This document shows, piece by piece, positions 4,956 to 40,990 of a DNA stretch of 64,000 nucleotides; position 1 is the stretch's first letter; every line of letters begins with the position of its first letter. A program made the translations under genes and the position numbers. Below the pieces are notes generated by a model. That model did no database searches. It was not told the DNA's origin and saw only the letters and a list, made by a program, of their open reading frames with translations. The stretch is from a virus: the UHGV virus genome UHGV-1353844, one strand, 5' to 3'.

Positions 4956-5020
4956 CAAGTCGTAAAGAGATTACGATGTAATCTCACTAAGGTAATATCT
5001 ATCTGAGAAAAAATTAAATA
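4956..5020 (-). promoter_or_regulatory. conserved early-promoter-like element, copy 1
   Basis: ~65-bp block near-identical to 40923-40990; minus-strand core AGATATTAC; palindrome GATTACGATGTAATC; ~27 bp upstream of start at 4931. Confidence 0.55.
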
Positions 5021-31395: not shown

Positions 31396-31554
31396 TCAGT
31401 TACTTCTCCTTTCAACTATCAACTGGGTGTTTCTTGGATAAGCAACTTTGGGCTGAGTTAACGTTGGTTGCGCTATTTCACTAACCCTACGTTGAAATTC
31501 GAGCTGTTTTACGGACAACTCGTTTAACCTTTGAAACAACTGTTCATGTTTCAT
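31396..31554 (-). CDS. small hypothetical protein (52 aa), not in ORF track
   Basis: Hand-translated MKHEQLFQRLNELSVKQLEFQRRVSEIAQPTLTQPKVAYPRNTQLIVERRSN; GGAG ~9 nt upstream. Confidence 0.3.
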   Translation of the reverse strand: MKHEQLFQRLNELSVKQLEFQRRVSEIAQPTLTQPKVAYPRNTQLIVERRSN

Positions 31555-31598
31555 GAACTTTTCTCCTATGTTGAAGTTGCGAAAATAAATAAAGTGTA

Positions 31599-31624
31599 CC
31601 CCTAATCCCGAAAAGGATTAGGGG
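31599..31624 (-). terminator. intrinsic terminator
   Basis: CCCCTAATCC-cgaaaa-GGATTAGGGG; A-rich upstream on plus. Confidence 0.6.
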
Positions 31625-31630
31625 TTGCTT

Positions 31631-32446
31631 TTATTTAATCGCTACGTATTGAACATGACCACATTCCTTACATTGCACGTTGGCTTGCGGGAATGTTAGG
31701 CCGGTTAAAGGAACACGGATTCGATACTGTGCACCACATTCTTCACAAACAAAATCGTGTTCTGGATAAACACGACCTTTCAATTTCTCATCCTTCCTTA
31801 ACGTTTCAGCCAGGAAATGCATGGCTCCTAACGCTTCATTAATCTGCTGTTCCCATTCACCGTCTAACGGATATGCGAACGCTCGAATCAACGTTTCCAC
31901 CATCTCCGGTTTATTGCTCACGTAGACGTGTTTCAATTCAAACTCTACGCGTTGTAGACCGAACAGCACACGTGCAGTTACCGTTACATTATCTAACGTT
32001 TGTGCAAACGCAACGGGATTATCATCACCGTACATTGCGAATAACCCAGCACGTTCGTATTCGATATCGCTCCACTCGATTAGTTCTACAGATTTAATCG
32101 CTTCCGCAATCTCAGCTTTACCGAACGTTTCATGTTCCAATAATCCGACGATAACTTCATTCAACGATTTCAATTGCTGTAAACGAATCACAGGATCGGT
32201 ATTCACGATAAGCAAACGATGCATTCTGGATTTCAACCAGTTAATCGTTCCTTCTACACCACCCCCAAACGAGCAGATGCTTATCACTTCAGGTTCACGA
32301 AGGATAAGAGTGGATTTTCCTGCTGCCGTACTCAAGTAGAGTTTAAAAGACTTATCGCTGGACTCTGCAACGATGGCAATGTCTTCAGTTGGAACGAAGT
32401 TTTCATTGCTCAGCCCACGCGGAAAATAATCTTTAATAGTAATCAT
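31631..32446 (-). CDS. hypothetical protein with C-terminal zinc-ribbon (CxxC...CxxC)
   Basis: ORF track; C-terminus FVCEECGAQYRIRV...QCKECGHVQY; GGAG RBS; terminator 31599-31624. Confidence 0.6.
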   Translation of the reverse strand: MITIKDYFPRGLSNENFVPTEDIAIVAESSDKSFKLYLSTAAGKSTLILREPEVISICSFGGGVEGTINWLKSRMHRLLIVNTDPVIRLQQLKSLNEVIVGLLEHETFGKAEIAEAIKSVELIEWSDIEYERAGLFAMYGDDNPVAFAQTLDNVTVTARVLFGLQRVEFELKHVYVSNKPEMVETLIRAFAYPLDGEWEQQINEALGAMHFLAETLRKDEKLKGRVYPEHDFVCEECGAQYRIRVPLTGLTFPQANVQCKECGHVQYVAIK

Positions 32447-32477
32447 CTTTTATGCTCCAATTAATAAAAAAATTAAG

Positions 32478-32493
32478 GGCACCCGAAGGTGCC
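32478..32493 (-). terminator. intrinsic terminator (UUCG loop) after lipoprotein gene
   Basis: GGCACC-cgaa-GGTGCC preceded by AAAAAAATTAA. Confidence 0.55.
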
Positions 32494-32500
32494 TTATACA

Positions 32501-32644
32501 TTAACCACGACCAGTGCACTGCGCAACGGAATTACCGTTGTCGATGCAAGTGTCGTAGCCTTTATCGATGTCCAGGTACAGGCAACCCAGAACAACAGCG
32601 ATAACAACAGCGAAGATAGCTTTTTTGTGTTTTACAGAAATCAT
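32501..32644 (-). CDS. small lipoprotein (47 aa precursor, lipobox VLG|C), not in ORF track
   Basis: Hand-translated MISVKHKKAIFAVVIAVVLGCLYLDIDKGYDTCIDNGNSVAQCTGRG; AGGAG 7 nt upstream; early-promoter-like element upstream; UUCG terminator 32478-32493. Confidence 0.55.
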   Translation of the reverse strand: MISVKHKKAIFAVVIAVVLGCLYLDIDKGYDTCIDNGNSVAQCTGRG

Positions 32645-32671
32645 GATATAGCTCCTAATTAGGTATTCGAT

Positions 32672-32735
32672 AAATGAGTATTACGTAATTCTCTCACCTA
32701 AGTAATATATATCTGAAAATATTTTAATTAAAACA
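32672..32735 (-). promoter_or_regulatory. conserved early-promoter-like element, copy 3
   Basis: Divergent copy (ATTACGTAAT palindrome, core TATATATTAC) upstream of lipoprotein gene. Confidence 0.5.
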
Positions 32736-32849
32736 CCCTCTAAAACGCGCTGTATCGCATTCTGACAGCCTTTTATTTTTTTAAACACCATTAATCGTCT
32801 TAAGGTGTAAAACAGCGTCTAAGACGCATTCACGAGTAAATAAAAGGAC

Positions 32850-32877
32850 ATCCCGTTACCCACAAAGGTAACGGGAT
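32850..32877 (-). terminator. intrinsic terminator
   Basis: ATCCCGTTACC-cacaaa-GGTAACGGGAT preceded by A-rich tract. Confidence 0.55.
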
Positions 32878-32881
32878 AATT

Positions 32882-33688
32882 TTACATCACTTGCATTTTG
32901 TTCACGACCGCAAGTTCTTCATCAGCAATACCGCTTTTCGATGAGATCGTAAAACGTTTATCGTTGATGACTTCTACGGCGTCACGAATATGCAGACCTT
33001 TCTCTTCAGTAATCGGGAGGATAGAATCGTTATCCTGCGGGCCGATTAACTGACAAGTAAACGGTACGTACGCGTTAAACGTGATATACGGACCTAGTTG
33101 CATAACCGGGAACACTTCGTTGAAGTTGCTTGCCATTCCGCTGTCAGACGAAATTACTGCGTAACGAACAACAGCACGTAACGCAATGGTGTTTTCAGGA
33201 TCGCGTGCTTCGCCAATCATCGTGAAACGGAAAGCGTTGAACTCATAATCGTCAGATTCAGCAAAGTGCGTCGGAAGCAAACGTTCGATATACTTCGGAT
33301 ACGTTTCTGGTTCTCCTGGAACTACCGCATTCGCCAACTTCTGTGCGTAGAAATAACAATACGCGAAACCGTACTGCGCTTCCAGTGCTCCCGTCACTAC
33401 CGCAGTCGTGATTGCGTGCAAGAACAACAAATTACCCAAAGAACCTTTTTCTTCAATCGGTAATAAGCGATGGCCCTGTACTCCGTCAACCGTGTAGATA
33501 ACAGAGACCGTTTTGTCAGCAGAAGACGCCATGACGAAATCTAGCTGACAATGCTCGCCGCCTGGAATAACCTTTAAGCAACGTTCTAACAGTTTGGACG
33601 GTTTAGCGAAATGTTCTTTTTCGTACTCGTCAATCTGCATTAACGTTTGACCAGACATGCGGAAAGTAAGTAAATTGCTCATTAACAA
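32882..33688 (-). CDS. hypothetical protein (268 aa)
   Basis: ORF track; terminator 32850-32877 downstream. Confidence 0.6.
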   Translation of the reverse strand: MLMSNLLTFRMSGQTLMQIDEYEKEHFAKPSKLLERCLKVIPGGEHCQLDFVMASSADKTVSVIYTVDGVQGHRLLPIEEKGSLGNLLFLHAITTAVVTGALEAQYGFAYCYFYAQKLANAVVPGEPETYPKYIERLLPTHFAESDDYEFNAFRFTMIGEARDPENTIALRAVVRYAVISSDSGMASNFNEVFPVMQLGPYITFNAYVPFTCQLIGPQDNDSILPITEEKGLHIRDAVEVINDKRFTISSKSGIADEELAVVNKMQVM

Positions 33689-40922: not shown

Positions 40923-40990
40923 ACAAGTCGTAAAAAAGATTACGATGTAATCTCACTAAGGTAATATATATCTGAAATTATTTTTAATCG
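40923..40990 (-). promoter_or_regulatory. conserved early-promoter-like element, copy 2
   Basis: Near-identical to copy 1; minus-strand core TATATATTAC; same palindrome; upstream of gene starting at 40899. Confidence 0.55.

What the first reader, a model, noticed from the sequence alone, without database searches (positions are those of the whole stretch)
32478..32735. Stand-alone 47-aa lipoprotein gene behind an early-promoter-like element
A short ORF absent from the track encodes a signal peptide with a lipobox (AVVLG|C) and a ~27-residue mature peptide with three further Cys. It has its own AGGAG RBS, promoter-like element and UUCG terminator, and no lysis genes nearby. Small early phage lipoproteins are known to block receptors or exclude superinfection (phage T5 Llp is the classic case). 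This looks like an analogous candidate.
Basis: partly seen in the sequence, partly recalled or inferred. Interest (0 to 1): 0.65.

Follow-up and report, generated by a model that had tools for sequence, protein, structure and literature searches.

The report
Early jumbo-phage envelope-anchored mini-peptide gene
This is a real 47-codon gene of a giant phage related to Salmonella phage SPN3US, probably expressed early, that tethers a tiny disulfide-stapled peptide in the host periplasm; it belongs to a catalogued family of unknown function, and the lipoprotein signal seen here occurs in only about half of its relatives.

Summary
The ORF (32501-32644, minus strand), its AGGAG ribosome-binding site, a promoter-like block and a GGCACC-UUCG-GGUGCC terminator are all present. 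One detail is wrong: there are two further Cys after the lipobox Cys, not three.

The window comes from a phiKZ-like jumbo phage about 65% identical in DNA to SPN3US, phiEaH2, Machina and Wellington. The peptide matches PHROG family 8574 (unknown function) over its full length. It is syntenic with SPN3US gp66 and its homologues.

Across 41 family sequences the invariant part is the C-terminal C-x3-GNS-x3-C-TGRG. AlphaFold2 models it as a helix-turn-helix with the two Cys on either side of the turn. It is under purifying selection (pN/pS 0.23).

The lipobox Cys is found in only 19 of 41 members, with at least three independent switches. The rest have a plain membrane-spanning anchor. The lipoprotein reading is therefore plausible for this copy but does not define the family.

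The promoter block recurs in 82 jumbo-phage records, almost always in unannotated DNA. In this window it precedes only non-structural operons, which fits an early promoter read by the virion RNA polymerase.

There is no homology to T5 Llp or to MgrB, and no lysis genes lie within about 10 kb. Function is untested. My leading guess, at about 0.3, is an early envelope-protection or superinfection-exclusion factor.

The parts
32690..32731 (-). Conserved promoter block AAAATATTTTCAGATATATATTACTTAGGTGAGAGA. Putative early promoter read by the virion RNA polymerase, with the transcription start inferred a few nt downstream of TATATTAC.
   Evidence: The block is 93-95% identical to non-syntenic sites in SPN3US-like genomes. 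A single same-strand copy lies upstream of the homologous operon in 14 of 15 related loci. The 42-nt consensus matches 322 places in 82 jumbo-phage records. There are 3 copies in the window, all on the minus strand. The early class is inferred from PMC7598289 and PMC11512511.
32652..32656 (-). Shine-Dalgarno AGGAG, 7 nt upstream of the ATG.
   Evidence: Read directly from the sequence.
32501..32644 (-). Coding sequence of 47 aa, a member of phrog_8574 (the SPN3US gp66 family).
32573..32620 (-). Hydrophobic segment, residues 9-24 (AIFAVVIAVVLGCLYL). It is preceded by the basic N-terminus KHKK. It is either the h-region of a signal peptide or a membrane anchor.
   Evidence: One search gives an uncharged span of 16 aa. 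In the AF2 model it lies within helix 4-35.
32582..32584 (-). Cys21 codon (TGC) of the putative lipobox V-L-G|C.
   Evidence: This copy passes the PROSITE-type rule but fails the strict lipobox. Cys occurs at this column in 19 of 41 relatives. At least 3 independent switches are needed on the tree.
32504..32560 (-). Conserved periplasmic C-terminal module, residues 29-47 (G-Y-D-T-C-I-D-N-G-N-S-V-A-Q-C-T-G-R-G). It is a CX9C helix-turn-helix with an invariant C-terminal CTGR (final residue Gly in 38 of 41).
   Evidence: Invariant columns are listed. pN/pS is 0.23 at pS 0.60. AF2 gives a turn at 36-39 and a helix at 40-44.
32466..32493 (-). Intrinsic terminator GGCACC-UUCG-GGUGCC followed by CUUAAUUUUUUU.
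32849..32878 (-). Strong 13-bp hairpin terminator that ends the upstream structural-gene transcript. It isolates the small gene as its own unit.
   Evidence: the 156-nt intergenic stretch 32735-32890 that contains it folds with z -5.7.

Best explanation
**What it is (shown).** This is a genuine, conserved gene of a phiKZ-like jumbo phage of the SPN3US, Erskinevirus, Machinavirus and Wellingtonvirus group. It is orthologous to SPN3US gp66 and belongs to phrog_8574.

**How it most likely works (inferred, step by step).**
1. The gene is transcribed right after DNA injection by the virion RNA polymerase, from the conserved TTTCAGATATATATTAC promoter. It is translated from a strong Shine-Dalgarno site.
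2. Its basic N-terminus stays in the cytoplasm. The hydrophobic segment inserts into the inner membrane, so the last 20 or so residues face the periplasm.
3. In this phage Cys21 (V-L-G|C, Leu at +2) is plausibly lipid-modified. The signal peptide would then be cut and the 27-residue lipopeptide passed to the outer membrane (probability about 0.5).
4. In the 22 of 41 relatives that lack this Cys, the same segment serves as an uncleaved membrane anchor.
5. C33 and C43 are probably joined by a disulfide. AF2 places them on either side of the NGNS turn of a helix-turn-helix hairpin that ends in TGRG. This hairpin is the functional, strongly selected part.
6. The same hairpin is displayed from either kind of anchor. 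Its target is therefore most likely something in the periplasm that both can reach.

**Leading guess at function (about 0.3).** It is an early envelope-protection or superinfection-exclusion factor that binds a periplasm-crossing part of an incoming phage, or a conserved envelope component. In principle this resembles T5 Llp or T4 Spackle, but it is not a member of those families.
For: - **Real gene.** Full-length match to phrog_8574 at E 3.4e-23, and all 33 aligned members hit that family. Homologues are syntenic between the gp65-like gene and the DnaB-like helicase in 15 phages and in metagenomic contigs. C-terminal pN/pS is 0.23 at pS 0.60, against 0.64 for the anchor.
- **Early expression.** The promoter block lies upstream on the same strand in 14 of 15 loci. 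It occurs 322 times in 82 jumbo-phage records, almost all in unannotated DNA. The other two copies in the window precede operons encoding DHFR and a methyltransferase plus an acetyltransferase-like protein, not structural genes. The literature places an AT-rich, highly conserved motif near -10 in the early promoters of these phages.
- **Topology and fold.** The N-terminus is basic and the uncharged span is 16-20 aa. AF2 gives mean pLDDT 85.7, with helix 4-35, a turn at NGNS and helix 40-44.
- **Lipid anchor in this copy.** The PROSITE-type rule is met. Cys recurs at one column only, with A, G or S at -1 in 18 of 19 cases. At least 3 independent switches are needed on the tree. This copy has the shortest and least membrane-helix-like hydrophobic span in the family.
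- **Context.** No lysis genes lie nearby.
Against: - No experiment or transcriptome for this clade could be consulted. The SPN3US infection proteomics paper is not held, and no paper mentions SPN3US gp66.
- The strict lipobox is not met by any member.
- The residues after the Cys stay hydrophobic in the other Cys-bearing members. The N-terminal H-K-[KR]-A-I motif is conserved in both classes. AF2 models one continuous helix through Cys21. All three points fit an uncleaved anchor.
- MgrB shows that a 47-aa membrane peptide with V-L-A-C in its helix can carry an N-terminal tag and still interact with its target. Its C16A mutant is fully active.
- A lipid anchor with no Asp at +2 would move the invariant hairpin to the outer membrane. 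That is awkward if the target is at the inner membrane.
- The exclusion function rests only on timing, location and analogy.
Confidence: 0.4

Rival explanations
1. It is an uncleaved bitopic inner-membrane small protein. Cys21 is only a helix residue. The protein binds and modulates a host inner-membrane sensor kinase, transporter or cell-wall enzyme through its helix and periplasmic CX9C tail, in the manner of MgrB acting on PhoQ.
For: It has the same size (47 aa) and topology as MgrB, and two conserved periplasmic Cys. MgrB also has V-L-A-C in its helix, and its C16A mutant is functional. 22 of 41 relatives have no Cys at that column. The N-terminal H-K-[KR]-A-I motif is conserved, and AF2 models a continuous helix 4-35. 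Early phage genes often take over host functions (general knowledge).
Against: There is no MgrB Pfam hit at E <= 1. hhalign aligns only the hydrophobic helix, at probability 22.7%. The helix is the fastest-evolving part (pN/pS 0.64), whereas specific helix-helix recognition would be expected to constrain it. The recurrence of Cys at one column after a small residue is not explained.
Confidence: 0.2
2. It is a lysis-related factor: an o-spanin-like small lipoprotein, a small holin or antiholin, or a regulator of lysis timing.
For: Its size is close to that of small o-spanins, and it has Cys residues. 9 of 33 members give weak hits to the Rz-like spanin family phrog_4297 (best E 0.02), and one member hits a holin PHROG.
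Against: The spanin hits cover only the N-terminal hydrophobic segment (residues 4-37 against profile positions 9-42) and are not significant. No endolysin, holin or i-spanin gene was found among the larger ORFs (>=90 aa) scanned between 21.5 and 46.4 kb. The gene sits behind an early-type promoter, whereas lysis genes are usually late. Half the family lacks the lipobox Cys that an o-spanin requires. The periplasmic tail of about 20 aa is far too short for an i-spanin.
Confidence: 0.06
3. It is a secreted periplasmic peptide. The hydrophobic segment is a cleavable signal peptide in all members, cut by signal peptidase II where Cys is present and by signal peptidase I at A-x-A-like or x-x-G sites elsewhere. 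This would release or tether a 26-27-residue peptide.
For: 13 of 22 non-Cys members also have A, G or S at -1 relative to column 21, for example A-F-A|V in SPN3US.
Against: There is no polar c-region. Hydrophobic residues continue for 5-6 positions beyond the putative site, giving an uncharged span of 18-20 aa typical of a membrane anchor. AF2 models one uninterrupted helix. The phiEaH2 and Asesino group has L-V-T at -3 to -1, which is not a signal peptidase I site.
Confidence: 0.07
4. It is a spurious ORF or a non-coding element. The conservation would reflect an RNA or DNA signal rather than a protein.
For: The ORF is short and overlaps antisense ORFs of similar length.
Against: The invariant amino acids are encoded by varying synonymous codons (C-terminal pS 0.60, pN 0.14). 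Length and frame are conserved in 41 distinct sequences. A Shine-Dalgarno site is present at the correct spacing.
Confidence: 0.02

Closest known systems
PHROG family phrog_8574 (SPN3US gp66, AEP83899.1; ChrisDB gp82; phiEaH2 AFQ96798.1; Kwan gp81, which UniRef auto-names 'Lipoprotein')
   Same: Full-length profile match at E 3.4e-23. Members are 45-51 aa long. The gene position is the same, between the gp65-like gene and the DnaB-like helicase. The C-terminal C-x3-GNS-x3-C-TGRG is invariant, and the same promoter motif lies upstream.
   Different: This copy is only 43-60% identical to all members other than its own strain variants. It has Cys at column 21, unlike its nearest cultured relatives phiEaH2 and Asesino. 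It has an unusually acidic stretch after the Cys (LYLDIDKG) and a terminator directly after the gene instead of the translationally coupled gp67 and gp68 genes. The family has no assigned function.
Phage T5 Llp (T5.158), an early lipoprotein that inactivates the receptor FhuA
   Same: Both are small phage-encoded peptides with an N-terminal basic and hydrophobic signal ending in a small residue plus Cys. Both have further Cys in the mature part and their own promoter, and both act in the envelope (annotation).
   Different: There is no homology: hhalign probability is 1.8%, and only the signal peptides align. Llp is 77 aa with a 61-aa mature part. In T5 llp is divergently paired with the receptor-binding protein gene oad, and no such pairing is seen here. 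The Llp lipobox (L-S-A-C) is canonical and its processing is documented, whereas here the Cys is absent from half the family.
E. coli MgrB, a 47-aa membrane peptide that inhibits the PhoQ kinase
   Same: Identical length. N-in, C-out single-pass topology. A Cys inside the helix after V-L-A (V-L-G here). A periplasmic tail of about 20 residues with two conserved Cys about 10 apart, both required for MgrB activity.
   Different: No Pfam MgrB hit. hhalign aligns only the hydrophobic helix, at probability 22.7%. The periplasmic sequences are unrelated. MgrB is a host gene of the PhoP regulon, not a phage early gene.
Phage T4 Spackle (Sp) and Imm, early envelope-located superinfection-exclusion proteins (from general knowledge)
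   Same: Early expression, and envelope or periplasmic location. The principle would be the same: interfering with an incoming phage's envelope-crossing machinery. That principle could be served from either membrane.
   Different: No PHROG other than 8574 is hit significantly by this copy, and none consistently across the family. Both T4 proteins are about twice as long. No functional data exist for this family, so this is an analogy only.
Early promoters of phiKZ-like phages, read by the virion RNA polymerase
   Same: An AT-rich, highly conserved block sits upstream of operons of small or non-structural genes. It is conserved across related jumbo phages.
   Different: The exact motif here (TTTCAGATATATATTAC-YTAGGTGAGAG) was derived here. 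I found no publication that maps transcription starts for the SPN3US-like clade.

Membership tests
phrog_8574 / SPN3US gp66 family | Full-length profile match | tested here: met
   E 3.4e-23, residues 1-47 against profile positions 1-47 of 47. All 33 aligned members hit it.
phrog_8574 / SPN3US gp66 family | Conserved C-terminal motif (D)Y-x2-C-x3-G-N-S-x3-C-T-G-R-G | tested here: met
   C33, G37, S39, C43, T44, G45 and R46 are invariant in 33 sequences. Y30, N36 and G47 are at least 90% conserved. This copy has G in place of D at position 29.
phrog_8574 / SPN3US gp66 family | Synteny: downstream of the gp64/gp65-like genes and upstream of the gp70-like gene and the divergent DnaB-like helicase | tested here: met
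Bacterial lipoprotein (Lgt/LspA substrate) | Positively charged n-region followed by an uncharged h-region of 7-22 residues | tested here: met
   K5, K7 and K8, followed by 12 uncharged residues before Cys21.
Bacterial lipoprotein (Lgt/LspA substrate) | Lipobox before the Cys | tested here: inconclusive
   V-L-G-C passes the permissive PROSITE-type rule as I implemented it. It fails the strict pattern [LVI][ASTVI][GAS]C because Leu is at -2. No family member passes the strict pattern. LipoP and SignalP were not available.
Bacterial lipoprotein (Lgt/LspA substrate) | Lipobox Cys conserved among orthologues | tested here: not met
   Cys is present at that column in 19 of 41 members and is V, S, A, T, I, W or L in the other 22. 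At least 3 switches are needed on the neighbour-gene tree.
Bacterial lipoprotein (Lgt/LspA substrate) | Diacylglyceryl modification and globomycin-sensitive cleavage | not testable with these tools
   This needs labelling and processing experiments.
T5 Llp / Cor-type receptor-blocking lipoproteins | Sequence or profile homology to Llp | tested here: not met
   hhalign probability 1.8%, with only 14 signal-peptide columns aligned. This copy's only significant PHROG hit at E <= 5 is phrog_8574.
T5 Llp / Cor-type receptor-blocking lipoproteins | Blocks the phage's own outer-membrane receptor | not testable with these tools
   Neither the receptor nor the host of this phage is known. Adsorption assays are required.
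MgrB family (Pfam PF13998; accession from my own knowledge) | Profile match including the periplasmic region | tested here: not met
   No MgrB hit in Pfam at E <= 1. hhalign aligns the hydrophobic helix only, at probability 22.7%.
Spanins (o-spanin or i-spanin) | Paired i-spanin and o-spanin genes in a late lysis cassette, with a conserved lipobox (o-spanin) or a long periplasmic coiled coil (i-spanin) | tested here: not met
   There is no partner or lysis gene nearby. The Cys is not conserved. The periplasmic tail is only about 20 aa. The weak phrog_4297 hits cover the hydrophobic segment only.
phiKZ-like early promoter (virion RNA polymerase) | A highly conserved AT-rich motif that recurs upstream of non-structural operons and is shared by related phages | tested here: met
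   with the literature description.
phiKZ-like early promoter (virion RNA polymerase) | Transcription start about 10 nt downstream of the motif, active in the first minutes and independent of host RNA polymerase | not testable with these tools
   No transcriptome for this clade was available.

The most novel reading that the evidence does not exclude
SPN3US-like jumbo phages deploy, within minutes of infection, a 20-residue disulfide-stapled helical hairpin (CX9C-TGRG) in the periplasm. Evolution has repeatedly switched its tether between a membrane-spanning helix (inner membrane) and a lipid anchor (outer membrane). The hairpin would be a new type of minimal exclusion or envelope-takeover effector that binds a periplasm-spanning target, for example the tail-tip or ejection apparatus of a competing phage, or a conserved enterobacterial envelope complex.
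Probability: 0.25. Interest if true: 0.55.

Novelty: new member of a known kind. Interest (0 to 1): 0.35.

Why it matters
Early genes of nucleus-forming jumbo phages are mostly small proteins of unknown function. Very few are known to act outside the cytoplasm.

This family offers a compact and tractable case: 47 aa, with one invariant 15-residue motif. It comes with natural 'experiments', namely variants with and without the lipobox Cys. It could show how giant phages secure the envelope of a freshly infected cell.

If it excludes related phages, that would matter for designing phage cocktails against Salmonella, Erwinia and E. coli.

The promoter motif defined here can also be used to predict early operons across this clade.

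As it stands, the finding is a well-supported annotation of an uncharacterised family rather than a new mechanism.

Tried and rejected
**Database searches for a known family**
- Pfam and NCBIfam scans of the peptide gave nothing meaningful.
- A PDB sequence-profile search gave only chance hits at E >= 0.097.
- A Foldseek search of the AF2 model against the PDB gave all E >= 4. It returned only generic helices and a few disulfide-stapled helical-hairpin toxins, which I treat as a shape resemblance only.

**Searches for more distant relatives**
- A single-sequence word-indexed search found only a 98% identical twin. The profile search was needed to reach 32 members.
- phmmer against 1.84 billion representatives found no host or non-phage relatives. 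The one exception was P0033, a 381-aa protein with a repeat, on a 1.9-kb contig with no informative context.

**Direct comparisons**
- Comparison with T5 Llp and with MgrB showed no homology beyond the hydrophobic segment.

**Ideas rejected**
- Spanin or holin: rejected on context, timing and architecture.
- A bacterial ('Salmonella enterica') homologue, P0010: this turned out to lie on a phage contig.
- Apparent loss of the gene in several SPFM Salmonella phage records: in the one record examined (SPFM7) this is a sequence-file artefact, with 60-nt blocks in reversed order.

**Literature**
- No paper discusses SPN3US gp66.
- The SPN3US infection proteomics paper is not held.
- A text search for the motif string was uninformative.
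Full report
**1. What is in the sequence**

On the minus strand, 32501-32644 is an ATG-initiated ORF of 47 codons: MISVKHKKAIFAVVIAVVLGCLYLDIDKGYDTCIDNGNSVAQCTGRG.

- AGGAG lies 7 nt upstream of the ATG.
- Directly after the stop codon there is a GGCACC-UUCG-GGUGCC hairpin followed by CUUAAUUUUUUU.
- Upstream, a 13-bp hairpin terminator at 32849-32878 ends the preceding 268-aa gene.
- Between that terminator and the ribosome-binding site lies the block AAAATATTTTCAGATATATATTACTTAGGTGAGAGA (32690-32731).

One detail is wrong. The protein has three Cys in all (21, 33, 43), so two further Cys follow the lipobox Cys, not three.

**2. Where the window comes from**

- DNA searches place the window in a jumbo phage about 65% identical to Salmonella phage SPN3US and to Erwinia phages phiEaH2, Asesino, Machina and Wellington.
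- Neighbouring genes are a DnaB-like helicase, a phiKZ-type major head protein, virion and internal head proteins, a polymerase and DHFR.
- Copies of the peptide with 100% identity occur in four uncultivated viral genomes of 150-225 kb.
- No lysis-category family was hit among the larger ORFs (>=90 aa, plus a few small ones) scanned between 21.5 and 46.4 kb.

**3. The ORF is a real, conserved gene**

- It matches PHROG family 8574 (unknown function) end to end at E 3.4e-23.
- tblastn finds it in 60 phage records.
- In 15 loci that I fetched, the homologue (for example SPN3US gp66 and ChrisDB gp82) is annotated as a hypothetical protein. It sits in the same place, downstream of the gp64/gp65-like genes and upstream of a gp70-like zinc-ribbon protein and the divergent helicase.
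- A profile search added metagenomic members, giving 41 distinct sequences of 45-51 aa.
- A search of 1.84 billion representative proteins found nothing outside this family. The single exception was a marginal 381-aa protein that repeats a similar CX9C motif.
- A hit labelled Salmonella enterica lies on a phage contig. The most divergent members are syntenic too.
- Codon analysis of 16 genomes gives pN/pS 0.23 for the C-terminal 19 codons, with synonymous sites near saturation (pS 0.60). The hydrophobic segment gives 0.64. Selection therefore acts on the protein, and mainly on its C-terminus.

**4. Anatomy of the family**

The alignment is essentially gap-free. It has three parts:
- a basic N-terminus, often H-K-[KR]-A-I;
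- a variable uncharged segment;
- a C-terminal module, (D)Y-x2-C-x3-G-N-S-x3-C-T-G-R-G, in which C33, G37, S39, C43, T44, G45 and R46 are invariant.

AlphaFold2 run on the family alignment gives mean pLDDT 85.7. It predicts one helix from residue 4 to 35, a turn at N-G-N-S, and a short return helix at 40-44. This is a helix-turn-helix with the two invariant Cys on either side of the turn, where they could staple it. By the positive-inside rule the N-terminus is cytoplasmic and this hairpin is periplasmic (inference).

**5. Is it a lipoprotein?**

Points in favour for this copy:
- K5, K7 and K8, then 12 uncharged residues, then V-L-G|C satisfy a PROSITE-type lipoprotein rule.
- Its uncharged span (16 aa) is the shortest class in the family, and acidic residues follow soon after the Cys (LYLDIDK). 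It is the most signal-peptide-like member.
- Cys occurs at exactly this column in 19 of 41 members, with Ala, Gly or Ser at -1 in 18 of the 19. Cys occurs essentially nowhere else in the N-terminal half.
- On a tree of the neighbouring gp65-like protein, at least three independent Cys/non-Cys switches are needed. The window's closest cultured relatives (phiEaH2 and Asesino) lack the Cys.
- Such column-specific recurrence is hard to explain if the Cys were neutral.

Points against:
- 22 of 41 members, including SPN3US gp66, have V, S, A, T, I, W or L at this column, with an 18-20-residue uncharged span typical of a membrane anchor.
- No member meets the strict lipobox.
- In the other Cys-bearing members the residues after the Cys remain hydrophobic.
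- The N-terminal motif is conserved in both classes.
- AF2 models an uninterrupted helix.
- E. coli MgrB is also 47 aa with V-L-A-C in its helix. It carries an N-terminal fusion and still interacts with PhoQ, and its C16A mutant is fully active. It is a cautionary precedent.

I put lipidation of this copy at about 0.5. The lipobox is not what defines the family.

**6. The promoter-like element**

- The exact 26-mer has zero expected occurrences in shuffles.
- The core TTTCAGATATATATTAC, allowing up to 3 mismatches, occurs three times in the window, all on the minus strand.
- The other two copies precede an operon that includes DHFR and an operon that includes a DNA methyltransferase and an acetyltransferase-like protein. 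Neither precedes structural genes.
- In 14 of 15 related loci a single copy lies on the coding strand in the gap after the gp65-like gene. It heads the operon that contains the small gene.
- The 42-nt consensus finds 322 places in 82 phage records. All are phiKZ-like jumbo phages, including Goslar, CR5, PCH45 and pVa-21, and almost all hits lie in unannotated DNA.
- Reviews and transcriptome studies describe exactly such AT-rich, highly conserved motifs about 10 nt upstream of the start sites as the early promoters read by the virion RNA polymerase in these phages.
- Early expression is therefore well supported by inference, but it has not been measured for this clade.

**7. Comparison with known systems**

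- **T5 Llp.** I retrieved the sequence from the T5 record. It is 77 aa with a canonical L-S-A-C lipobox, and its gene is divergently paired with the receptor-binding protein gene. Profile comparison gives probability 1.8%, with only signal-peptide columns aligned. This is not a member of that family.
- **MgrB.** It shares length, topology and two periplasmic Cys. The alignment covers only the hydrophobic helix (probability 22.7%), and Pfam shows no MgrB hit. This is not a member either.
- **Spanins and holins.** Weak PHROG hits to an Rz-like spanin and a holin cover only the hydrophobic segment. Context, timing and architecture rule out a spanin or holin role.
- **Solved structures.** No PDB sequence or fold match is significant.

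**8. Most likely mechanism**

- *Shown:* a conserved gene with a hydrophobic segment of membrane-anchor length and a strongly constrained C-terminal CX9C hairpin, behind a clade-wide promoter motif.
- *Inferred:* early transcription by the virion polymerase; N-in/C-out insertion; a disulfide between C33 and C43; lipid anchoring in this copy, against a helix anchor in about half the relatives.
- The same invariant hairpin is displayed from either kind of anchor, and no member has Asp at +2 to retain a lipoprotein in the inner membrane. The target is therefore most simply something in the periplasm that both membranes can reach.
- Given the early timing, I favour an envelope-protection or superinfection-exclusion role (about 0.3). 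In principle this is analogous to T5 Llp or T4 Spackle.
- An MgrB-like modulator of a host inner-membrane protein is the main rival (about 0.2).
- Lysis-related, freely secreted and spurious readings are unlikely.

**9. Verdict**

The lipoprotein and Llp-like interpretation is only partly supported. The gene is a new, divergent member of an already catalogued but uncharacterised phage family. Interest is moderate. Its value lies in being a compact, experimentally tractable early envelope factor of nucleus-forming jumbo phages, with a natural series of lipobox-plus and lipobox-minus variants.

Noticed in passing
window ~40945-40985 (-) and ~4985-5010 (-): There are two more copies of the promoter block (TTTCAGATATATATTACCTTAGTGAGATTACATCGTAATC...). 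They share about 40 further nt of downstream leader with each other, including a small GATTAC-ATC-GTAATC inverted repeat. One heads an operon ending in DHFR. The other heads an operon with an acetyltransferase-like protein and a DNA methyltransferase.
   Followed up: partly
locus L022 (GenBank LR535904.1, Salmonella phage SPFM7) 2080-2920: This record carries the gp66 locus as consecutive 60-nt blocks in reversed order relative to SPN3US, each block 95-100% identical. It looks like a sequence-file handling artefact. It explains the missing annotation and the partial tblastn hits in this record, and plausibly in the several other SPFM records that behave the same way (only SPFM7 was examined).
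   Followed up: yes
protein P0033 (Logan SRR21621036, locus L028 448-1593): This 381-aa protein has N-terminal hydrophobic segments and four tandem repeats, aY(N/D)xCIGNG(N/A)SxxQC, that resemble the family's CX9C motif (E 9e-4 against 1.84 billion proteins). It gives a weak thionin Pfam hit. The contig is only 1.9 kb, so there is no context.
   Followed up: partly
window 31631-32446 (-): The downstream 271-aa gene is the counterpart of SPN3US gp70. It ends in a CxxC...CxxC zinc ribbon (sub-threshold Pfam and NCBIfam zinc-ribbon hits). Its function is unknown, and it has its own strong terminator at 31598-31625.
   Followed up: partly
window 31396-31554 (-) and SPN3US gp71/gp72 (L001 5905-6310): SPN3US has two paralogous 48-aa proteins (...Q-x-R-[LV]-Q-[EQ]-[VL]-T...IKGLGG[DE]I...) in the same operon. 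A 52-aa ORF in the corresponding position of the window looks weakly similar at its N-terminus. I did not test this.
   Followed up: no
loci L001, L011, L021, L024 (SPN3US-type phages): In the SPN3US-type loci, and in several of the Erwinia-phage loci (e.g. Caitlin, SNUABM4/9/11), the gp66 stop overlaps or directly abuts the start of the next small gene (gp67, then gp68 in SPN3US), which suggests translational coupling. In the window these genes are missing and a terminator follows the small gene instead.
   Followed up: partly
locus L024 (GCA_052023715.1 contig DBJTMZ010000025.1): A 21.8-kb contig in an assembly labelled Salmonella enterica is jumbo-phage DNA: it carries a PhiKZ-type major capsid protein, a divergent DnaB and the gp66 homologue. 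The phage was therefore present in that culture or sample.
   Followed up: partly
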